Part shown: in pieces, positions 2,548-17,100 of the stretch
How positions within the stretch are numbered: position 1 is the first letter of the stretch
Layout of the letters: the number at the start of each line of letters is the position of its first letter
Source: a virus
Taxonomy: Duplodnaviria; Heunggongvirae; Uroviricota; Caudoviricetes
Direction: 5' to 3' (one strand)
Virus record (IMG/VR): IMGVR_UViG_2537562194_000013
Length of the DNA stretch: 22,567 nt
Program-made: the position numbers and the translations under genes
The notes under the pieces: generated by a model
What the model was told of the DNA's origin: nothing
Databases searched by the model: none
The model's input: only the letters and a program-made list of their open reading frames with translations

Positions 2548-4467
2548 ATGGAACAGTTCAATATCAATAAAGGGGTGGCGATCAAGCCTGGGCTTGACGT
2601 GCTTCCCCCGCCAGTGACTGATGATGAATATCGCGCATTAATGGCCGGTGAGGACCGCTATCTGATGACGGAATCCAACACCCTGGAGGAAATCGAGGCT
2701 ACGTTCTTCTATGACACGCCGATCCACTGGTGTGCTACGGATTTACTGGAGGCGATTAGTTCTACTCGTTTGCAGCTACACCGGACCATGCAGGCATTTG
2801 TCCGGGCATTGAACCAGAAGCTGAATGGTACCGGAATCTCTGCGGGGAGTGATAAAACGGGGGACGTGGCCCAGAACGGTGCACGCGCGATCGGCGGGGC
2901 TGAAATTGGCCGGGCGCGTAACGTTAACGGGCTGCCGGTTCTGCCAGCCATTATTCCGCTCAGTGATGGTCAGACTATCAGCATTCTGTTTCATAGCCCG
3001 ACAGCGGAAAACCGGATCACCAATAGCGATACGCTGATTGCTTTCCAGTTCTTACTGAATAAAAAAGACGTTACTCATACCGTTGCTCCGATGAGTGGAC
3101 GTGATATGACGCTGGCGCAGGTCACCATGAAACTTGCCAACCTTGCAGAGAAAAACTCGGCAAAATTCCAGCGTGCGCAGAAGAAGAAAAAAGCCCTGGT
3201 TGATGAAATAACCCAACTACAGGCTGACAGTGACCAGAAAGAGGATGCCATGAGCGACCTCGCGGATCAGGTGGCAGCGGTAGAAGGCCAGAAGGCAGAT
3301 CTGGAGCAGAAAATTAACGTGGTTGCTTCGGAAGCGGATTCTCTTTATCAAGAAAATGAGCGTTTGCAGGCGGAGATTGATCAGCTCAATCGCACTGGTG
3401 GGCGCGATACCATTGCTCCTGCGGGGATGACTGGTGGGCACTCTCGCGCGCTGACGGATCGCCTTGCCAGTATCAAAAATCGTATGCATATGGACGGGGA
3501 AGCGACGCTCAGTAATGGTGCATCAATGAAGCAATTCATTGGGGATGGCGAAGGGTATATCCAGTTAACCGATCCGGATGGCAGCGTATACATGATCAAG
3601 GCTAAATCCATACAGGGTGTGGACATGGCAGAAGCGATCGGCAAGCTGTTTAAAGCCTATAAAGCGGGTAATGTATCGGAATATCTGGTCCAACCAGAAG
3701 AACATAAACCGGAAAACGTCGAACCTGAACCAGCGGAGGATACCGGTAGCTCTTCGCCTGAACCAGAAGTCTCTGTAGGTGCATATCGATATGCCCTGCA
3801 AATGCGTCCGGCGGCCCCTGGCGCAATACCTGAAGGTAACAAAGCAATTCTGCCGCGCCCTGATGAAGGTGACCCGTATTATGAATATGCACGCTACGGC
3901 ATTGCTACTTACGATACCCCGCTTTCTGATCAGCAAATGAGTGAGTACGACCTGAAGTTATTGCCTCGCGAGGATTCTTTCGACTTCCTGGCGAAGACAC
4001 TTACTAATGGTCCGTTTGGCAAATATGCACAAAAAGCTCTGGAGCTGGCCACCAGCTCACCAGACGAGTTCCGCGTAATGCTGAAAACTCAGTTTCAAAA
4101 AACTTTCCCCAATATTGCGTATCCGGGGGGCGCTGGCACCGAGAAAATGGTGCAGAGCATGATCAATGCATTGCAGGCCGAAGTCGGTGAGATTACTCAG
4201 CCAGAACCGGCCCCGGCACAGCCTGATGAAACGGTTAGCGAAGCAGATGCAGAGGCTAATAAAGCCATTGAATATCTCAATAACGTGATGGATATGCAAA
4301 GCACTGACATGGCGGAGATCCGTAACGCCCGGGGCAATGTCCGGGAAGCGATTGCAGCCCTTCAGGCTGCCGGACGTTTTGAGGAAAACGAAGAGCTGGT
4401 TAACGGCGCAGCTCGCCACCTGGCTGATCTGCTGGTAGCAATCCAGAAAGCGGGGGTAGCGGCATGA
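2548..4467 (+). CDS. darA: DarA (defence-against-restriction protein A precursor; head internal protein)
   Basis: 639 aa. ATG at 2548 follows AGGAA and sits 1 nt after the hdf stop. Size and position match P1 DarA. It has a central coiled coil and an acidic Pro/Glu-rich segment (PEEHKPENVEPEPAEDTGSSSPEPE). Confidence 0.85.
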   Translation: MEQFNINKGVAIKPGLDVLPPPVTDDEYRALMAGEDRYLMTESNTLEEIEATFFYDTPIHWCATDLLEAISSTRLQLHRTMQAFVRALNQKLNGTGISAGSDKTGDVAQNGARAIGGAEIGRARNVNGLPVLPAIIPLSDGQTISILFHSPTAENRITNSDTLIAFQFLLNKKDVTHTVAPMSGRDMTLAQVTMKLANLAEKNSAKFQRAQKKKKALVDEITQLQADSDQKEDAMSDLADQVAAVEGQKADLEQKINVVASEADSLYQENERLQAEIDQLNRTGGRDTIAPAGMTGGHSRALTDRLASIKNRMHMDGEATLSNGASMKQFIGDGEGYIQLTDPDGSVYMIKAKSIQGVDMAEAIGKLFKAYKAGNVSEYLVQPEEHKPENVEPEPAEDTGSSSPEPEVSVGAYRYALQMRPAAPGAIPEGNKAILPRPDEGDPYYEYARYGIATYDTPLSDQQMSEYDLKLLPREDSFDFLAKTLTNGPFGKYAQKALELATSSPDEFRVMLKTQFQKTFPNIAYPGGAGTEKMVQSMINALQAEVGEITQPEPAPAQPDETVSEADAEANKAIEYLNNVMDMQSTDMAEIRNARGNVREAIAALQAAGRFEENEELVNGAARHLADLLVAIQKAGVAA

Positions 4468-4841: not shown

Positions 4842-7829
4842 ATGAGCTTAAGCGATCAGGTGGTAATGGCCACCAGCATAGAAACGCTGATCGAGCTGCT
4901 AAAGAACCTGCCCGATTATGGGCGGGTTTCGTATGTGGTGACAGCGAAGGGAGACGAGGTAAAAACAGCGTTTGATATCGTCGATGCCTCAGCTCTTTTG
5001 GTATCCAATACTCTGGATGGGAAAATTAATCCAGACTATCCCCAGGAACTTCAGCCGCGCGACCGGACCCGCGCATCCAGCCTTCTTCAGGTCAACCAGA
5101 TATCCAAGGATTTGCGTCCTGCCCAGCTTACCGATTCCGGTTTATCCAGCCATGGCGCGCCAATAATTGGTGAGGACAATGCCGTTGAGTCAGGTAATGG
5201 GCGGACCATGGGGATCATTAAAGCCTATCAGGACGGTAATGCGGATCGGTATCGGGAGTACCTGATTGAACATGCGACCGAATTCGGCATACGGCCTGAA
5301 AAGGTTGAATCAATGACGGCTCCGGTACTGGTGCGCCGCCGGTTAACGACGGTTGACCGTGTTCAGTTTGCCAAGGACTCAAATATTTCTGATCTCCAGG
5401 AAATGGCAGCCAGTGAAAAGGCTTTTGTTGATGCCGACAGCATAACACCGGCGATGATGGCGCTTTTTAACCCGTCAGAAAGCGGAGATCTGCTTAGCCG
5501 CAGTAATGACGCGTTTATTCGCGGATTTATGACGCAAGTTGGTGCCACACAGGCGGCTGGCCTTGTAACTGAAGATGGGCGACCAACACGGCAACTTGTT
5601 GACCGTATACAAAACGCGATCTTTGCCAAGGCATATAAGGATGCGCGCCTGGTAAGGATGGTTGCAGAAGAACCTGATCCGGATATGCGTAATGTTCTGA
5701 CGGCGCTTAATGCGGCAGCCAATGATTTTGTCCAGATGCAGGCTTTATCAGGAGAAGCGCACAAGCAGGCTGTGACAACCATTGTTGATGGTATTGAAAC
5801 AGCGGATAGCCTCGATAAAAAGGCGCTGGCGGCATTGAAAGATGCGGTAGACCTGGTAAGGCAATCGAAGGAGTCAGGCCAACATATTACCGATGTTATT
5901 GCTCAGGGGGATATGTTCAGCGAAACGGCCCCGGAAGTGAAAGCACTCGCGTTGTTCATCGTCGCGAATAACCGTAGCGCGAAGCGTATGGCCACCGCCT
6001 TTAAGTTGATGGCGCAACGTATCAATGATGAGTTACAGCACCAGGGCCAGGCGCTGGGGGATATGTTTGGCGGCGGCGATGTGTCGTTACAGGATATCCT
6101 TCGCCAGGTGTCTCAGGAACTGGAAAACGAAGGCATGCAAGGGATATCCGGCGGTCTTTTCGAGTCCGTTTCCGGCGGTAGTTACAACGGTGTTGCTCCG
6201 TATACCAGTTTGCTATTACATCGGGCATCCGGCATCAAAGACATTATTCATCTGATCAGGCTGCTTTCCCGCACAGATCCCCAGGATGAACAGCTTGTAC
6301 AAGTGCTTGCGCATTTTGTTCGAATGCCTGTTGCCGACGTGAAAAAATGGTGCCGATTATTCGGTATCAGCAATTCGTTACTTCGCGGCTTGTTAAATCA
6401 CGCATCCTCCCTTGGGCGCGATGGCTTTGACGAGATAGCGCAGGCGATAAAAAACGGAGATATGCCACCAGCTATTGACTGGTTTTCCATTCGCCCAACC
6501 AGGGTGAAAGCATTCCTTAGCGCGGCGCATTCGGCATCACCATTGGCAGAAATGGTTCAGAGGTTATCGCTCATATTCACAGACCATACCGCGTTGGGTG
6601 ATCTGACTCTGGACGAGATGAAGGAAGCCTCCATTCAGTGGGCCGATCAACAAAATGAGGTTAACTCAGACTTCTTGCCAGCATTCAGGAAGGCCGTTAG
6701 TAAAGCGGATGATGCCCGTGGAATTCTGAAGGCATTTAAGGCATTGCAAAGTCGTGTTAATAAACATGTCGGTGATATCGATGGGGTAACGGAGGAAGGC
6801 CGGGATATCCTTAAAGATCACGGCATAACGCCAGAGTTTATTGATGAGATCAGGACTGATATGCAGCGTGAGGTCGTATCGTCCCTGCAAATCGTAGCCA
6901 GAGCGTTGGCGGATGCTAATCCGAAGAGTGCGGCCATTGTTAACCGGGTTATTGGTGATATAGAAGCATCGGAGGGCATGGGGGCGCTGAAACTCTTCCT
7001 TTCGCGAGCGTTTAATCCTAACGGCAATATTCTCCCTGGCATTATTGGTGAGGCTAAAAAGTATGTCAGTGAAGAAGAACTTGAGCAGCTTGACCAACTA
7101 CTTAAGCGATTCTCATATAACCCGCAGACACGCTGGCAAATGAATCAGCGAAGTATGGGTTCGGTCCACGAGAAAGTGTTATCTGCCATGAACAGTGCGA
7201 TCGCAAACTCATCCGTATCTGAAGAAAAAGCTCTTGAGTGGGCCGACTCTTTTATCACAGAAGAAGTGGAAGAAGCCCGCGCTGGACAGAATGGTGGGAT
7301 AGACCTGCGCAAGGAACTTGCTGATATTTATCGCCTGACCGGCGGGAAAATATCGACCTTATCAAAGGTAGTTCACCACCAGGGAAGGGCATATGCAAAT
7401 CTAAATGGTGTTGTTGCTGTCAATTTGAACGATAAAAATGCAAGTGCACTGTGGCACGAGCTGGGTCATCATCTTGAGTACAGTAACCCTGGTTTGTTAG
7501 AGAAAGCCCGGTCATTCCTGAAGGCCAATGTTGAAGGGGATAAGCCATCATTCGTCAATATCGGTGGGCGTGGCAAGCCTGAATGGTGCTTCAGATCTCG
7601 ATTGAGTAATATTTATATGGCGAAGGTATACCCGCCAGCCTCAGTAAGTAATTCCGGGAAAATTCGGCAGAAATCACCGACTATTTCCAAAACGTCAGCA
7701 ACGGAAGTATTCTCTATGGCTCTTCAGTTGTATCATGACAAAGAGGCCGCTGCCGCATCACTGATGAATGGTGACGGATTGCTGGAACTGTTATTAGGTG
7801 TGGCAAAGGAGCTAAATAATGCAGATTAA
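4842..7829 (+). CDS. ddrB: DdrB (large dar-operon protein)
   Basis: 995 aa uninterrupted ORF immediately downstream of ddrA. Size and position match P1 ddrB. No catalytic motif was recognised by eye. Confidence 0.85.
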   Translation: MSLSDQVVMATSIETLIELLKNLPDYGRVSYVVTAKGDEVKTAFDIVDASALLVSNTLDGKINPDYPQELQPRDRTRASSLLQVNQISKDLRPAQLTDSGLSSHGAPIIGEDNAVESGNGRTMGIIKAYQDGNADRYREYLIEHATEFGIRPEKVESMTAPVLVRRRLTTVDRVQFAKDSNISDLQEMAASEKAFVDADSITPAMMALFNPSESGDLLSRSNDAFIRGFMTQVGATQAAGLVTEDGRPTRQLVDRIQNAIFAKAYKDARLVRMVAEEPDPDMRNVLTALNAAANDFVQMQALSGEAHKQAVTTIVDGIETADSLDKKALAALKDAVDLVRQSKESGQHITDVIAQGDMFSETAPEVKALALFIVANNRSAKRMATAFKLMAQRINDELQHQGQALGDMFGGGDVSLQDILRQVSQELENEGMQGISGGLFESVSGGSYNGVAPYTSLLLHRASGIKDIIHLIRLLSRTDPQDEQLVQVLAHFVRMPVADVKKWCRLFGISNSLLRGLLNHASSLGRDGFDEIAQAIKNGDMPPAIDWFSIRPTRVKAFLSAAHSASPLAEMVQRLSLIFTDHTALGDLTLDEMKEASIQWADQQNEVNSDFLPAFRKAVSKADDARGILKAFKALQSRVNKHVGDIDGVTEEGRDILKDHGITPEFIDEIRTDMQREVVSSLQIVARALADANPKSAAIVNRVIGDIEASEGMGALKLFLSRAFNPNGNILPGIIGEAKKYVSEEELEQLDQLLKRFSYNPQTRWQMNQRSMGSVHEKVLSAMNSAIANSSVSEEKALEWADSFITEEVEEARAGQNGGIDLRKELADIYRLTGGKISTLSKVVHHQGRAYANLNGVVAVNLNDKNASALWHELGHHLEYSNPGLLEKARSFLKANVEGDKPSFVNIGGRGKPEWCFRSRLSNIYMAKVYPPASVSNSGKIRQKSPTISKTSATEVFSMALQLYHDKEAAAASLMNGDGLLELLLGVAKELNNAD

Positions 7830-8133
7830 AATCGCAGCGCCATTAGGCGGAGATGCCATTATCGAATTTGATGATAATGAAGAAGTTTCCGGGCGTTTAA
7901 GCATTATCTCCGGTGACATTACCGAGGACATGATCGCTGAAGCCATAGCTGGGGCAAATCCCAATAGCTATATGGGATTCGTTAACACCCTTGATGCTCC
8001 CGCAAGTGATGTTCTCCGAACGCTGCATCTTTACGCTGGCTGGTTTGTTGATTGGCCAGCAGTAGAGGGTGGCGATGAGGACGACGATGATGACGATGAT
8101 TTTGGGGATCATGTAGACCAGATCGTATATTGA
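7819..8133 (+). CDS. Small, very acidic protein with a poly-Asp C-terminal tract; last gene of the dar operon
   Basis: 104 aa. ATG 7819 has AAGGAG 7 nt upstream and overlaps the ddrB stop, so it is translationally coupled. It has about 25 Asp/Glu against 3 Lys/Arg and ends EGGDEDDDDDDDFGDHVDQIVY. A strong terminator follows directly. Confidence 0.7.
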   Translation: MQIKIAAPLGGDAIIEFDDNEEVSGRLSIISGDITEDMIAEAIAGANPNSYMGFVNTLDAPASDVLRTLHLYAGWFVDWPAVEGGDEDDDDDDDFGDHVDQIVY

Positions 8134-8137
8134 AGAA

Positions 8138-8164
8138 ATCCCGCCAATCGGCGGGATTTTTTTT
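8138..8164. terminator. Rho-independent terminator between the convergent dar operon and the ssb operon
   Basis: 8-bp GC-rich stem (ATCCCGCC / GGCGGGAT), 4-nt loop, then a run of 7 T. It follows the stop at 8133 on the plus strand and overlaps the stop of the minus-strand gene at 8163. Confidence 0.85.
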
Positions 8165-8951
8165 AATCGCTTTCCACTTCTTCCGTGGTGTTTTCTTGCA
8201 GTTCTGTTAATGCAGCACGACATAGGTTCCGGGCATTGGATATAGCCACACTTTTGACTTCATCCGTCATCGTGCAGGTAATGTACTGATCGAGTTCTTC
8301 AGCGCGGATGATGCTTTTGCCAATCAGAAACTGTATTTGCCAGAGCAGATCGGCATCCATAATCAGAATTTCTGCCGGGCCTTCAGGGCCAGCCGGGAAG
8401 GAAACATAAGACTGTTTGCCCAGGCCGATAACTCGACAACTTGCTTCAAGAATTGCGCGCTTGAGGTCTGACTTTGTAACTGAAACAGGTTGATTTTCAC
8501 CTGCGATTACGCCGTTGACATGGATGTGGAAGGGCATGTAGCTTGAAATTCGCTCTACTTTCCATACGCCAGCAAGCGATCCTTCATGCAGCACAATGGG
8601 GGTAACCGCGAGTTTCATCTCACCATATAACTGCTGGCAGATAACTGGATTACTGAATACATCCAGAGGTTCACACTCAAACAGCGGCGCAATCTGCATG
8701 AGGTCCATCATGGTCATACCAGGGGTACGAGCAGTAATGAATCTGCGCATTCCAGTATCCATTGTGCGCCAGATAGCTACACCATGCTTTTTGCTCACTT
8801 CTTCAGTAAAGCCAAGGTGGCACATGATGGTTTTTTCGATAGCCAGATCAGAGATCGAAACCTTTTCGCCAGGCACACCATCATTATTGATGGTCACTTC
8901 GACACTCTGACCATTACGCAGGCGGTATTGAATTGCTTTAGTATTTTCCAC
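8163..8951 (-). CDS. Hypothetical protein (262 aa), last gene of the ssb operon
   Basis: GTG start at 8951 with GGAG 9 nt upstream; it begins 6 nt after the upstream gene's stop. Acidic C-terminus (ELQENTTEEVESD). No recognisable motif. I am not aware of an intact counterpart in P1, which as I recall carries an IS1 insertion around this position. Confidence 0.65.
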   Translation of the reverse strand: MENTKAIQYRLRNGQSVEVTINNDGVPGEKVSISDLAIEKTIMCHLGFTEEVSKKHGVAIWRTMDTGMRRFITARTPGMTMMDLMQIAPLFECEPLDVFSNPVICQQLYGEMKLAVTPIVLHEGSLAGVWKVERISSYMPFHIHVNGVIAGENQPVSVTKSDLKRAILEASCRVIGLGKQSYVSFPAGPEGPAEILIMDADLLWQIQFLIGKSIIRAEELDQYITCTMTDEVKSVAISNARNLCRAALTELQENTTEEVESD

Positions 8952-8957
8952 GTTAAA

Positions 8958-9635
8958 TCACTCCACTACAAACCAGTCACATGCCAGTAAGTCGCCTACA
9001 GAAGGAACCCACGGAACAACTACACCTTGTGCATTTTTTAAGGCGAAATAAGCACCATACGGAACGAGGTCGCCGGGGAAATATCCCTTAATGGCTTCCA
9101 TTCGTGCCGGGTACTGTCCTTCAGGAACCAGCCAGCAGAATTGGTTTTCGCCGTTCCACCCGCGTCGGGCAACTTTCTTGCCATCCTTCAGCCACATCAG
9201 CGCGTCAGAAAAGTCGGCTGCTTCAAGGTCGATTTCTTCTTGTAGAGTAGCGATACCGCCAGCAGAAATAGTTACGTCCCTGGCTGTAATGAATGTCACC
9301 CCATTGTGACCTTCAATGCTGAGCGATACCCCATTTTCGAAGAAGTCGTTAGTCCGACTAAAGCCTTCTTCAAATGTTTTTTCTGGTGAATAGGACAGAG
9401 ATCCGTCCTCATAAGCGACCAGATATCCGCCAATTTCTGGTCGGTGTTTTTGCAAAAATATTTTATCAACATGGACTTTTACCCCTTCTGGCTCAACGAC
9501 TTCGATGTTGCAAAAAAGGACCACATCCATTAGGGCGATAATTTCGATATCTTTGATTTTTGAGGCGCGAACTGTTTTATGGCTTTTGTATTTTGGAAGT
9601 GCCGTCAAAAGCTCTTTCGTTGTCATGTTATTCAT
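8958..9635 (-). CDS. Two-domain protein with a C-terminal DUF2829 (Tad2-like) domain
   Basis: I prefer ATG 9635 (MNNMTTKELL...), which has an AGAGGA ribosome-binding site, over the track start at 9803. The C-terminal ~80 aa (FSDALMWLKDGKKVARRGWNGENQFCWL...VVVPWVPSVGDLLACDWFVVE) fits the DUF2829 signature as I recall it: ALK-GKK-RR-GWNG, then PW-PS--DLLA-DW. The N-terminal ~140 aa is unrecognised. Confidence 0.7.
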   Translation of the reverse strand: MNNMTTKELLTALPKYKSHKTVRASKIKDIEIIALMDVVLFCNIEVVEPEGVKVHVDKIFLQKHRPEIGGYLVAYEDGSLSYSPEKTFEEGFSRTNDFFENGVSLSIEGHNGVTFITARDVTISAGGIATLQEEIDLEAADFSDALMWLKDGKKVARRGWNGENQFCWLVPEGQYPARMEAIKGYFPGDLVPYGAYFALKNAQGVVVPWVPSVGDLLACDWFVVE

Positions 9636-9832
9636 AGTCTTTCCTCTGCTTAAAACCTGATGTATTGCGCCTTCAGGTGGGTCAGGAATGTTTTCCCACC
9701 AGCGAACGCAATATCTCGGGGTGTTCTTTTCGTGAAAAGCGCGTGCCATTGCCAACTTTGGCGTTTGTTTGCGAGTTCGTGCTTTTGTCGGCGTCTGGAC
9801 CACCGCTTTTCTTTCAGTCGTTTTTTACACAT

Positions 9833-10321
9833 TCAAAACGGAATATCGTCGTCAAAGTCCATTGGAGGTTCGTTATTGGCGTTGCTCTGAGGTTTACCGC
9901 CACCACTGTATTGCTGGTGGTTTTGAGGTTGGTTTGATTGCCCCCAGCCATTTGAGGACTGTGAATCGTCACGGCGAGCGCCGATCATTTGCATGGTGCC
10001 GCCCTGGCTGACGATAATTTCCGTCGTGTAACGTTCTACACCGGCGTCATCTGTCCACTTACGGGTTTTAAGTTTCCCTTCGATGTAGACCTGAGAACCT
10101 TTTCGTAAATACTCACTCGCAATTTCAGCAAGTTTTCCGAACAAAACGACTTTATGCCATTCTGTTTGCTCTTTCTGTTGGCCCGTTTGCTTGTCGCGCC
10201 ATGATTCATTCGTTGCGATGCTGAGTCTTCCGACCGCTCCGCCATTTGGTATATACCTGATCTCCGGGTCTTGCCCCAGAGTACCAATCAGGATGACTTT
10301 GTTTACACCGCGTTGTGCCAC
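9833..10321 (-). CDS. ssb: Single-stranded DNA-binding protein
   Basis: 162 aa. N-terminal OB-fold signature ([20 protein letters not shown]...[37 protein letters not shown]), Gly/Gln-rich linker, and the canonical acidic tail [11 protein letters not shown] start at 10321. Confidence 0.92.
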
Positions 10322-10340
10322 TTATCTTACCTAATAAAAT

Positions 10341-10357
10341 AAATTAATTAGAGCAAT
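10341..10357 (-). promoter_or_regulatory. P1 C1-repressor operator-like 17-mer in the ssb promoter region
   Basis: The minus-strand sequence ATTGCTCTAATTAATTT matches the asymmetric C1 operator consensus ATTGCTCTAATAAATTT at 16 of 17 positions. It lies 20-36 bp upstream of the ssb start, just downstream of a TATACA -10-like hexamer in the ssb direction. Confidence 0.55.
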
Positions 10358-10490
10358 AATGTATATCTTTGAAACGTAGCTAACAAGTGATTTGCATTAT
10401 CCTGTGCCTTCTAAAGGGATCGAGTCAGTCGGTATTGGCTGTGAATGGGTGTTTGTCCTGGAGCGTAAAAAATTCGCTTATGAGGTCTTT

Positions 10491-11048
10491 ATGAAGGGAA
10501 AAACAGCCGCAGGAGGCGGTGCAATTTGCGCTATCGCGGTGATGATTACCATCGTGATGGGTAATGGCAATGTGCGAACCAACCAGGCGGGGCTTGAGCT
10601 GATTGGTAACGCTGAAGGTTGCCGACGTGATCCATACATGTGCCCGGCGGGGGTATGGACTGACGGGATTGGTAATACACACGGGGTAACGCCGGGTGTG
10701 CGAAAAACCGACCAGCAAATCGCCGCTGATTGGGAAAAGAATATCCTGATCGCTGAACGCTGTATTAATCAGCACTTCCGGGGCAAAGACATGCCCGATA
10801 ATGCCTTCAGTGCAATGACAAGCGCGGCATTCAATATGGGATGCAATAGCTTACGGACCTACTACAGCAAAGCGCGAGGCATGCGAGTAGAAACGTCCAT
10901 CCACAAGTGGGCGCAGAAAGGGGAGTGGGTGAATATGTGTAACCATCTCCCTGATTTCGTGAACAGTAACGGCGTGCCCCTGCGAGGTTTAAAGATTCGC
11001 CGTGAAAAAGAACGCCAGCTTTGCCTGACGGGGCTGGTCAATGAATAA
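10491..11048 (+). CDS. lyz: SAR endolysin (phage lysozyme, T4-lysozyme-like fold) of the P1 Lyz type
   Basis: 185 aa from ATG 10491, with GAGG upstream; the track ORF starts earlier at 10392. N-terminal Gly/Ala-rich signal-arrest-release segment (GGGAICAIAVMITIVMGNGN), then a catalytic region with Glu, Asp and Thr in the expected arrangement (NAEGCRRDPY...GVWTDGIGNTHG). Confidence 0.92.
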   Translation: MKGKTAAGGGAICAIAVMITIVMGNGNVRTNQAGLELIGNAEGCRRDPYMCPAGVWTDGIGNTHGVTPGVRKTDQQIAADWEKNILIAERCINQHFRGKDMPDNAFSAMTSAAFNMGCNSLRTYYSKARGMRVETSIHKWAQKGEWVNMCNHLPDFVNSNGVPLRGLKIRREKERQLCLTGLVNE

Positions 11049-14136: not shown

Positions 14137-17100
14137 ATGAACAAGCTATCTATGGGGGTGTTTCGCTGTTCAAGTGTCAGCGAAATATTAAAATACATTA
14201 GGGCAATAACATCTCACCAAGCGCCGATTAAATATGGCGTGGAAAAGGTGGAAGGCAAAAGCTATGACCGACTGCGCCGGGAGGCGAATCAGAAGGCGAT
14301 AGATTTGCTTAATTCGCTGGTGGACGGCGCGACACTGACAGATGAACAGCGCCAGATCCTGGCTGGGTACACCGGTGAAGGCGGCATTGGCGGGTCCGTC
14401 TCCGAATATTACACACCAAAGCCGATCGCTGAAGGTGTCTGGGAGATCATGAAGCTCTACGGCGCGGACGTAGGTAACACTCTGGAACCATCGGCGGGAA
14501 CCGGCGTTTTTAATGAGACAAAACCGGTTGGTACGGTGATGACCGCGACTGAGATCAGCAGTGTTTCCGGTCGTATAAACCAGTTGTTACACCCGGAAGA
14601 CAGCGTACAGATTTCCCCGTTCGAACAGCTGGCTATAAGCACGCCTAACGATTCATTCGACCATGTTGTGGGTAACGTTCCGTTCGGCGGTCGTGATAAC
14701 ACACGCAACATCGATAAGCCTTACGCAGAAGAAACGGACATGGGTTCTTACTTCATGCTCCGCATGCTGGACAAGATAAAGCCAGGCGGATTCATGTGCG
14801 TGATTGTGCCGCCGTCCATTGTTTCAGGTTCAAACATGAAGCGGTTACGCCTGCGCCTATCACGGAAAGCTGAATTTCTTGGTGCCCACCGCTTGCCTAC
14901 CGGTACTTTTGACGCAAACGGGACCAGTACAGTCGTTGATGTGGTGCTGATGCGCAAACATCCGGCAGAGATGGCTGAGAAAATCCCCCTGGTGGATGAA
15001 AGCACTCTTGAATCGGCAAATGTGCTTTGGCCAACGTTTATTTCTGGCAAGTGGTTTGAAAAGGATGGCCGCCGGTTTGTTCATGGCACCCAGGAAAAGG
15101 GCTTCCAGGGGCGTATTGAGGTTCGTGCCGACGGTCAGATTGATAACCAGGCTCTTAAAGCGAAGCTGATTCATCGTTTCGAAAGCCGTATCGACTGGTC
15201 TTTGCTCGATATGGCTGAACCGTCACTGACCGCAGACGTTGTTGGTGAAGGGGAAATGCGCCTGATTAATGGCGTATGGCAAAAATATGCTGGTGGTCGC
15301 TGGATTGAAGCTGATGCCGGGAAGGAACTTAAAATTGATGCTGCCAGTTATGGCGCGGATAGCTGGGAGGCTCTTCAGCGTAACCTGACTACAACAGAAG
15401 GCCGTCTCGGTATGACATTTACCCAGATGGCAAATGTCCGCGATAAGTACACCACATCAATCAGCGACGATATGGTGCAGCTGGTGGACTGGATTAACAG
15501 CCAGCCTGAAAAATACCGTGAACGCTTGTATCGTGGGGCGATGATTGGCCGGATGTTAATTGAATATCAGGATATGAAGGCCGCCGGGCATAGTGCTGAA
15601 CAAATCGAACAGCAGCGCCTTTCTCTGGTATCCCGTTTGCAGGCAGAGATTGACCGTTTTGGTAACCCTGGTCGCGGTCCGATAGCTAAATTATCGGGAA
15701 GCGGTGCGCGCGCCTGGTTTGCTTTCCGTGGTGCAATTAAGCTGGATGGCACTATTTCTGACGAGCTGACAGGAAAGCTGGTTACGCATGATTCCAGCGC
15801 CAGTTATGACTCCACCAGCTATCAGGACACCCTGCGTTATCTCTATAGCGATCTTACCCGCGATCCAATCCAGCTCGATGATTTCCGCCTTGCGTTTACC
15901 GGCGAATTGCCAGCCAGTGATGAAGAGTTGCTTAATTTATTGGCCAGCACTCCTGGTATTGCGGTTTCACCGTATGGCGGGATTGTTCCGTTCGCCCGCG
16001 CCACCAGCGGCGACATTAACGAGATAGTGGCTCCAAAACAGGAATTCCTCGCCACGCTCCCCGACGGTCCAGTAAAGAACAACGTCCTTAATCAGCTGGC
16101 AGCGATCGAAGAGAAGCGCATCAAGACGCCAGCAGAGAATATCCGGTTTAAGCTCAATAGCCGTTGGTTCGACCGTTCCGTCATTCTGGAGTTTTTGCAG
16201 GAAAACGGCTATCCGGATCTGCGCTATGTGCAGTCAGTGCAGCTGGAAGGCGACGAAATGGTTTCTGACACCTATCACGGTGGTGATGGCCTGTTCGTCG
16301 GGCACCGATACGGTGTCGTCCAGCGCAAGGATAAAGAAACAGGCGAGATCCGCTACGAGTGGGACCGTAAATCAGGTGAAAACGCGACCGGGTTCCCGGC
16401 ACAGCTGGAAAAGTATCTCAATGGTGCGCGTATCGGTGGCAAAGATAGCGCGACGGCGAACGGCTACCGCGAGCAGATGGCACTGCTTGAGGACCAGTTC
16501 AATAAGTGGATCAAGACGCACGATCGCTACGATGAACTGGTTGCCAAATACAACGATGTGTTCAATAGCAATATCCCGTATGAACACTCTGGCGATCCGC
16601 TTGGGTTGAAGGGATTAAGCGGTAAGCGCCAGCCATTTGATTACCAGAATAGCGAAGTGCGCCGACTGTCCGAAGATGGGCGCGGCATCCTGGGCTTCGG
16701 CACCGGGCTGGGTAAAACTACGACCGCGCTGGCGCTTGAGGCGTTCAACTATGAGAACGGTCGCTCCACCCGTACTGCGTATGTAGTGCCTAAATCAGTG
16801 CTGGAAAACTGGTATTACGAAGCAAAAGAATTCCTGAGTGAAGAGGCATTCAGTAACTACCTGTTCGTCGGTCTTGATGTGCTGATGGATGGCGATCAGA
16901 TTCGCCAGGTGCCGGTGCTCGATGAGAACGGTAAACCTGTTCTTGGTACTGATGGCACTCCAGTTATGCGCGATGCCCTAAAACTGGCAGATGAAGCCAC
17001 TATCACGGCGCGGATGAACGCGATCCCGCACTCAAATTACCGTGCAGTCGTGTTTACCAAAGAACAATACGCCCGCATTCCGCTACGTGATGACACCGTA

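What the first reader, a model, noticed from the sequence alone, without database searches (positions are those of the whole stretch)
8163..8951. Uncharacterised 262-aa protein co-transcribed with the Tad2-like gene
It begins 6 nt after the Tad2-like gene, with its ribosome-binding site inside that gene's 3' end, and runs to the bidirectional terminator. I found no recognisable motif. Placement in an early operon with ssb and a putative anti-defence sponge makes it a candidate anti-defence or host-takeover protein. As I recall, P1 has an IS1 insertion with flanking isaA/isaB ORFs at the equivalent position, so this may be the uninterrupted ancestral gene.
Basis: inference. Interest (0 to 1): 0.6.

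Follow-up and report, generated by a model that had tools for sequence, protein, structure and literature searches.

The report
P1 isaA ortholog, function still unknown
The 262-codon ORF is a real, intact, early-expressed gene and is the ortholog of bacteriophage P1's long-annotated gene isaA; it is not a gene that IS1 split in P1, and its function is still unknown, with no test yet of the anti-defence idea.

The parts
8163..8951 (-). isaA ortholog: 262-aa ORF with GTG start; acidic (pI 5.1) two-domain alpha/beta protein, PHROG 2326
   Evidence: (95% identity to P1 IsaA 60-320)
8952..8964 (-). Translation-initiation region: SD GGAG (8964-8961), overlapping the last sense codon of the Tad2-like gene and abutting its TGA stop (8960-8958), then the 6-nt spacer TTTAAC. 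The same junction is found in D6-type elements
   Evidence: sequence read directly; alignment
8136..8164 (.). GC-rich hairpin (8136-8159) plus T-run (8157-8164, its first 3 T inside the 3' arm) between convergent hxr and isaA; probable terminator, strong for hxr and weaker for isaA
   Evidence: -21 and -17.1 kcal/mol; 0 of 200 shuffles as stable; conserved in SJ46; missed by the scan
8958..9635 (-). Tad2-like (DUF2829) gene, 225 aa from the ATG at 9635. It is a cassette present in some P1-type elements and absent in others, and is shared with D6-type elements (homology runs from 9656 to 8909)
9636..9832 (-). About 197-nt leader between ssb and the next start codon, roughly 99% identical to P1 (within the 769-nt piece 9632-10400). 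It is annotated as coding in the 281-aa ORF here and in the 320-aa P1 IsaA, but is probably untranslated
9833..10321 (-). ssb, first gene of the operon
10341..10357 (-). C1 repressor operator (Op21/Ossb) over the ssb promoters
   Evidence: 1 mismatch; 0.09 matches expected by chance; P1 annotation
7819..8133 (+). hxr, a convergent gene that shares the hairpin

Best explanation
SHOWN: the ORF is the ortholog of bacteriophage P1 gene isaA (P1_gp017) in a P1-like phage-plasmid. It is a real protein-coding gene under purifying selection. It is the last cistron of the C1-repressed ssb operon, so it is made early after infection or induction. It is accessory rather than essential. In this lineage a Tad2-like (DUF2829) cassette sits between the operon leader and isaA; P1 itself lacks that cassette. 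INFERRED (about 0.35 likely): IsaA acts as a non-enzymatic, stoichiometric binding protein. Its conserved C-terminal alpha/beta/alpha domain would engage a host protein, and its acidic surface and disordered acidic tail would help to occupy or mimic a partner. On this view it neutralises a host factor (a defence component or a nuclease) while the phage-plasmid enters, establishes itself or is derepressed. The target is unknown. The identity part of this statement carries about 0.97 confidence; the single figure below refers to the mechanistic part.
For: Identity: 95% identity to P1 IsaA residues 60-320. SJ46 annotates its ortholog as isaA. PHROG 2326 matches at E = 3.7e-150. Synteny is ssb ... 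isaA / hxr. Coding and selection: dN/dS 0.11-0.14; 457 of 474 matching plasmid records hold a full-length copy. Early expression: C1 operator; no terminator-like site on the minus strand between ssb and isaA; 6-nt gap with the SD inside the upstream gene; P1vir RNA-seq shows isaA tracking ssb at both time points in both hosts. Accessory status: non-essential in P1 by CRISPRi (efficiency of plating 0.86); absent from P7, which carries nmpC there, and from JL22, phi456 and 673R5; the locus is a documented variable region. Binder rather than enzyme or nucleic-acid binder: all 24 aligned members are acidic (pI 4.4-5.1, net charge -9 to -27) and most carry acidic or proline-rich low-complexity tails. 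No catalytic motif or family is found. The conserved polar residues are few: Y9, Q106, W130, E133, K/R179, D221 and Y223, all but Y9 in the C-terminal domain. Counter-defence context: the gene lies between the darA/ddr and darB anti-restriction clusters, the latter inferred from P1/P7 synteny. It lies directly downstream of, and is probably translationally coupled to, a Tad2-like gene in about 110 P1-type plasmids and in most D6-type plasmids.
Against: No direct evidence for any target or phenotype. The family is confined to P1-like elements: only 35 cluster representatives among 1.84 billion proteins. It keeps conserved synteny with cre across lineages down to about 19% identity. This is unlike typical portable anti-defence genes and points equally to a role in the element's own DNA transactions. 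The conserved E133, E219, D221 and K/R179 could be an unrecognised active site or a ligand pocket. The acidity argument is weak, because many cytoplasmic proteins are acidic. The only confident structural neighbours are themselves uncharacterised.
Confidence: 0.35

Rival explanations
1. IsaA is an accessory factor of the phage-plasmid's own DNA transactions (cyclisation, recombination, replication or nucleotide hygiene). It would work with Cre, Ref, SSB or dUTPase, for example as an adaptor that binds one of these proteins.
For: In every divergent lineage with enough flanking DNA, the homolog lies 1-2.5 kb downstream of a Cre-like recombinase on the same strand. The usual order is c1 / cre - about 110 aa - MarR-like wHTH - [dut] - [Tad2-like] - IsaA-like, followed in two cases by Ref (RecA_dep_nuc). 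In P1-type elements it follows ssb instead. The family occurs only in P1-like elements, as expected for a lineage-specific function. It is expressed with ssb.
Against: It is dispensable for P1 lytic growth and missing from about 30% of P1-type plasmids and from P7. It is acidic, so direct DNA binding is unlikely. Neighbourhood is the only evidence.
Confidence: 0.3
2. IsaA is a small-molecule (nucleotide-signal) sponge or a novel hydrolase. It would complement the adjacent Tad2-like sponge, forming a two-gene counter-signalling module.
Confidence: 0.15
3. One reading: the ORF is the uninterrupted ancestral form of a gene that IS1 split into isaA and isaB in P1.
For: P1 does carry isaA-IS1-isaB between ssb and hxr.
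Against: The ORF aligns end to end with P1 IsaA 60-320 at 95% identity and shares its stop codon. IsaB is unrelated (E = 1.2). IS1 lies in the intergenic spacer with a 9-bp target-site duplication, CAGAGGGCA. Gene callers give full-length 262-264 aa products for P1-type copies.
Confidence: 0.01
4. IsaA is a cargo gene ('moron') that benefits the lysogen, for example by superinfection exclusion or defence, rather than serving the phage.
For: The locus is a cargo hotspot: nmpC porin in P7, a phosphohydrolase and other ORFs in relatives, and IS or resistance-gene insertions. In D6-type elements the gene lies in the cre operon; cre is expressed in lysogens according to established P1 biology (from memory).
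Against: In P1-type elements it sits behind a C1-repressed promoter. No PADLOC defence model matches. G+C content is the same as in the flanks, so it is not a recent import. It is conserved across the whole P1-like lineage.
Confidence: 0.1

Closest known systems
Bacteriophage P1 IsaA (P1_gp017, YP_006486.1; 'IS1 insertion-associated gene A', function unknown)
   Same: 95% amino-acid identity over 261 residues. Same position, downstream of ssb and convergent with hxr. Same C1-controlled operon.
   Different: The reference P1 annotation is 320 aa because it adds a 56-codon leader that is probably untranslated; PGAP-type calls give 264 aa. Here the start is a GTG with the D6-type first ~14 codons, and a Tad2-like gene lies between the leader and isaA. 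P1 also has IS1 and isaB downstream, which are absent here.
D6-type IsaA-like proteins (e.g. P0013, 258 aa; phage D6 and about 138 plasmids)
   Same: Same family (46-48% identity, full length). Directly preceded by a 225-aa Tad2-like gene with the identical GGAGTGATTTAAC-GTG junction.
   Different: They lie in the cre operon after dut, not in the ssb operon. They are diverged beyond the first ~14 codons (dS saturated, dN 0.44).
PDB 1R7L, 'phage protein' from Bacillus cereus ATCC 14579 (structural genomics; from memory the founding structure of Pfam Phage_ABA_S, PF18066); also PDB 4PUP
   Different: 15% identity. No sequence or profile match to any Pfam family or PDB chain. That protein is a single ~110-aa domain and is itself of unknown function, so it names a fold, not a mechanism. 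I could not see which IsaA segment aligned.
Tad2 / DUF2829 anti-Thoeris sponge (the upstream neighbour)
   Same: Same operon, probably translationally coupled, and both are early accessory genes.
   Different: No sequence or domain similarity. DUF2829 is spread over many unrelated phages, whereas the IsaA family is confined to P1-like elements.
ssb-linked anti-defence/anti-SOS genes of conjugative-plasmid leading regions (ssb-psiB-ardA islands; comparison from memory, not tested)
   Same: Early-expressed accessory genes placed directly downstream of a plasmid-borne ssb.

Membership tests
P1 IsaA / PHROG 2326 | Full-length sequence similarity to P1 IsaA | tested here: met
   95% identity over 261 aa; PHROG 2326 at E = 3.7e-150, covering 1-262 of the protein and 1-261 of 264 profile positions
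P1 IsaA / PHROG 2326 | Position between ssb and hxr in a P1-like genome | tested here: met
   Window order is hxr(+) / isaA(-) Tad2-like(-) ssb(-) / lyz(+). SJ46 and P1 annotations agree
   IsaA alone covers the whole ORF. IsaB scores E = 1.2. IS1 has a 9-bp target duplication in intergenic DNA
Tad2-like / DUF2829 (PF11195) | Match to the DUF2829 domain | tested here: not met
   0 Pfam families at E <= 1 for the 262-aa protein. The neighbouring ORF matches at 2.5e-22
Known defence-system proteins (PADLOC-DB) | Match to any PADLOC model | tested here: not met
   0 hits for the query; one of 24 family members at E = 0.033
Curated anti-defence families (e.g. dbAPIS / AntiDefenseFinder) | Profile match to a known anti-defence protein | not testable with these tools
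   No such library was available. Pfam and NCBIfam, which hold several of these families, gave nothing
PD-(D/E)XK (restriction-endonuclease-like) nucleases | alpha-beta-beta-beta-alpha-beta core carrying conserved D...(D/E)xK catalytic residues | tested here: not met
dsRNA-binding domain (dsRBD) | alpha-beta-beta-beta-alpha fold with basic RNA-contact residues | tested here: inconclusive
1R7L-like phage domain (Phage_ABA_S, named from memory) | Structural superposition on 1R7L and a profile match to the family | tested here: inconclusive

The most novel reading that the evidence does not exclude
The IsaA family is a previously unrecognised counter-defence or DNA-end/recombination-protecting protein specific to P1-like phage-plasmids. 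It would be a non-enzymatic inhibitor built on a 1R7L-like domain, made early from the ssb or cre operon, and in many elements it would act together with the Tad2-like sponge as a two-gene module.
Probability: 0.2. Interest if true: 0.6.

Novelty: already known. Interest (0 to 1): 0.3.

Why it matters
The main value is as a correction. The ORF is P1 isaA, not a gene restored from an IS1-split one. Anyone annotating P1-like phage-plasmids should transfer the name isaA and a 262-264-aa gene model; the 320-aa reference model probably includes an untranslated leader. The work also gives a better starting point for an old orphan gene of a model phage: a confident two-domain structural model, a short list of conserved residues to mutate (Q106, W130, E133, K/R179, D221, Y223), the observation that the family is a lineage marker of P1-like elements normally tied to the cre operon, and a description of how the Tad2-like anti-Thoeris cassette moves in and out next to it. 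If IsaA turns out to be an inhibitor of a host defence or nuclease, it would add a new anti-defence fold. On present evidence it is an ordinary conserved hypothetical gene.

Tried and rejected
(1) Sequence families. Pfam, NCBIfam and PADLOC were run on the query and on 24 family members; nothing matched. PHROGs gave only the family's own unknown-function PHROG 2326.
(2) PDB by sequence and by profile: 0 hits at E <= 10.
(3) First AlphaFold run with 6 sequences was poor (pLDDT 56). The run with 24 sequences gave pLDDT 89.4.
(5) Literature on 1R7L and 4PUP: nothing usable. The Lobocka 2004 P1 genome paper is not held. No paper assigns a function to IsaA, and IsaA is not mentioned in the main text of the P1 virion proteome paper.
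(6) I asked whether NinX (PF10765, seen in L015) links by sequence to 1R7L or 4PUP: it does not.
(7) The search for related loci with the family alignment failed because no stretch was conserved enough.
(8) Rfam on 7700-10500 gave only sub-threshold hits that reflect the terminator hairpin. The leader folds only modestly (z = -2.4).
(9) The nuclease hypothesis was rejected for lack of conserved catalytic residues. The RNA/DNA-binder hypothesis was judged unlikely because the whole family is acidic.
(10) I could not decide whether the Tad2-like cassette was gained or lost. Both flanks (a 22-nt RBS block and the isaA 5' end) are shared, so homologous exchange in either direction fits.

Full report
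OBSERVATION. The window is part of a P1-like phage-plasmid. Region 7800-10400 is 98.4% identical to Salmonella phage SJ46, and 8100-9900 is 100% identical to E. coli 95JB1 plasmid p95JB1A. The ORF at 8163..8951 lies on the minus strand, starts with GTG and encodes 262 aa. PGAP calls exactly this CDS on p95JB1A. Reading the sequence, the upstream Tad2-like gene ends with GAG-TGA (stop at 8960-8958). A 6-nt spacer, TTTAAC, follows, and then the GTG at 8951. The isaA stop (8165-8163) abuts a hairpin at 8136-8159, which convergent hxr (7819-8133) reaches from the other side. The hairpin is far more stable than shuffled sequence (-21 and -17.1 kcal/mol; 0 of 200 shuffles). It has a perfect T-tail for hxr and a weaker one for isaA. 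The consensus terminator scan did not report it.

IDENTITY. The protein is 95% identical (250 of 262 aligned positions) to residues 60-320 of P1 IsaA and 96% identical to the SJ46 protein annotated as isaA. P1 IsaB is unrelated (E = 1.2). In P1, IS1 (768 bp) lies about 95 bp past the isaA stop and is flanked by the direct repeat CAGAGGGCA. That is a simple insertion into the isaA-isaB spacer and it interrupts neither gene. Where P1 has isaB, IS1 and their flanks (about 1.7 kb), the window has only the 29-nt hairpin spacer.

LOCUS ARCHITECTURE. The first 56 codons of the annotated 320-aa P1 IsaA are the same sequence as the first 56 codons of the 281-aa ORF found here for the Tad2-like gene. 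This shared 'leader' (9636-9832) is probably untranslated, for three reasons. PGAP starts the Tad2-like gene at the ATG at 9635, giving 225 aa. The PHROG 872 match begins at residue 57. D6-type orthologs are 225 aa, and P1-type isaA is mostly called at 264 aa. A 22-nt ribosome-binding block, TAAGCAGAG(A/G)AAAGACTATG, precedes isaA in P1, and precedes the Tad2-like gene both here and in D6-type elements. Homology to D6-type elements runs from 9656 to 8909, that is, from this block through the Tad2-like gene and into the first ~43 nt of isaA. The Tad2-like gene is therefore a cassette that can be exchanged by recombination between the block and the conserved isaA 5' end, while isaA is the constant partner. 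In PLSDB, about 110 records carry Tad2-like plus isaA at the ssb locus, and about 336 carry a P1-type isaA. A preprint reports Tad2 in 56% of P1 and 93% of D6 phage-plasmids.

EXPRESSION. The C1 operator Op21/Ossb is present at 10341-10357, with one mismatch to the consensus I searched with, in the position annotated in P1. No terminator-like site lies on the minus strand between ssb and isaA. In P1vir RNA-seq (PMC8201110, Table S1) isaA tracks ssb. In the wild-type host, isaA is 7.37 at 10 min and 11.92 at 30 min, against 7.53 and 11.66 for ssb. In the dksA host the values are 6.22 and 10.97 against 6.03 and 10.35. Late genes such as darB, prt, hxr and S are at 4-5 at 10 min. Co-transcription with ssb as an early unit is therefore well supported for the ortholog and is inferred here.

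SELECTION AND PREVALENCE. dN/dS is 0.14 against P1, 0.14 against SJ46 and 0.11 between P1 and SJ46. It is about 0.17-0.22 against the 48%-identical D6-type genes. tblastn finds the family in 474 plasmids, 457 with a full-length copy: 336 at >= 90% identity and 138 at < 60% (D6-type). The P1-type pro gene is found in 488 plasmids, and D6 does not match it even in distant mode. So roughly two thirds of P1-type elements keep isaA. P7 carries nmpC at this site, and JL22, phi456 and 673R5 also lack isaA. CRISPRi knock-down of P1 isaA gave no plating defect (efficiency 0.86). The locus is a documented variable region. G+C content matches the flanks.

FAMILY AND SYNTENY. An exhaustive profile search of 1.84 billion representatives returned only 35 proteins. 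Every homolog with usable flanks lies in a P1-like element: Escherichia, Salmonella, Pantoea and Enterobacter, plus metagenomic and other assemblies whose hosts I did not identify. In each it lies downstream of a Cre-like recombinase next to a C1-type repressor, in the order cre - about 110 aa - MarR-like wHTH - [dut] - [Tad2-like] - IsaA-like. The gap to the upstream gene is small (a 4-nt overlap up to about 90 nt), and Ref follows in some cases. The ssb-operon position seen in P1 and in this window is thus the derived one. By contrast, the DUF2829 domain of the neighbouring gene is spread over Vibrio, Bacillus, Klebsiella, Pseudomonas and other phages.

MECHANISM. What is shown: gene identity, coding status, early co-expression, dispensability, lineage restriction and the fold. 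What is inferred: I think IsaA is most likely (about 0.35) a non-enzymatic binding protein that neutralises or recruits a host factor early after entry or derepression. The reasons are its acidity, the lack of catalytic residues, its placement between the Dar anti-restriction clusters, and its recurrent coupling to a Tad2-like sponge. Nearly as likely (about 0.3) is an accessory role in the element's own DNA transactions, given the cre, ref, ssb and dut neighbourhood and the strict restriction to P1-like elements. A nucleotide sponge or novel hydrolase (about 0.15) and a lysogen-benefit cargo gene (about 0.1) remain open. The IS1-split idea is refuted.

VERDICT. The gene is already known as P1 isaA and its function is still unknown. 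Interest is modest (0.3). The useful outputs are the corrected homology and gene models, the cassette description, the family's synteny with cre, and a confident structural model with a short list of residues to test.

Noticed in passing
window 9636-9832 (-); also P1 NC_005856 isaA codons 1-56: The 281-aa ORF for the Tad2-like gene, and the 320-aa reference model of P1 IsaA, both begin with the same 56-codon 'leader'. PGAP, the PHROG 872 alignment and the D6-type orthologs all point to a start at the ATG at 9635 (225 aa). The three window-versus-P1 differences I could see in the aligned part of the leader all change the amino acid in that frame (by eye). The leader is about 197 nt, roughly 99% conserved, has no Rfam hit and folds only modestly (z = -2.4). 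Its role is unknown.
   Followed up: partly
window 8909-9656 (-); L007 5296-6043; L002 about 4300-4340: The Tad2-like gene is a cassette bounded by a shared 22-nt RBS block, TAAGCAGAG(A/G)AAAGACTATG, and by the first ~43 nt of isaA. Both boundaries are shared between P1-type and D6-type phage-plasmids. The window's isaA has D6-type first codons (GTG GAA AAT ACT AAA GCA ...) joined to a P1-type body.
   Followed up: yes
L002 (P1) 2670-2678 and 3447-3455: IS1 of P1 is flanked by the 9-bp direct repeat CAGAGGGCA. It is therefore a simple transposition into the isaA-isaB spacer.
   Followed up: yes
L013 (phage P7) 3652-4767: P7 carries an nmpC outer-membrane porin gene between its hxr-position gene (odaA) and ssb, where this window has isaA and the Tad2-like gene. 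The site is a general cargo hotspot.
   Followed up: partly
window 14191-14207 (-): A second, weaker C1-operator-like site (3 mismatches) lies between the prt/pro genes and darB. It corresponds to the hypothetical Op(pro) annotated in P7.
   Followed up: no
window 8136-8164: The consensus terminator scan does not report this very stable hairpin, probably because the flanking A-run and T-run can pair, extend the stem and use up the T tail. Rfam sub-threshold hits to Trp/Thr leader models here simply reflect the terminator.
   Followed up: yes
window 8070-8100 (+), hxr codons ~85-96: Hxr ends with a poly-acidic tract (GGDEDDDDDDDFGD). P1 Hxr is annotated as an Xre-like putative repressor, and the tract is unusual for one.
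   Followed up: no
L003, L009, L012 (gene directly or closely upstream of the IsaA-like gene; a similar-sized ORF in L007): A 140-176-aa protein recurs between cre and the IsaA-like gene in divergent P1-like elements. Two of them (L009, L012) match MarR_2 just below Pfam's cut-off (E about 2e-5). In L003 its stop overlaps the IsaA-like start by 4 nt. It could be a regulator or a partner.
   Followed up: partly
phage RCS47 FO818745.1 about 15495-15950 and 25579-28172: In RCS47 the Tad2-like gene is annotated in two parts, with an ISSod13-family transposase annotated under the same match, next to isaA. So in this family an IS appears to interrupt the Tad2-like gene, not isaA.
   Followed up: no
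L002 (P1) 1940-2545: P1 IsaB (201 aa) ends in a CxxC-containing tail (KCSICGERNAK). It has no counterpart in this window, is unrelated to IsaA, and is transcribed at levels similar to isaA in P1vir RNA-seq (6.39 at 10 min, 11.21 at 30 min).
   Followed up: no
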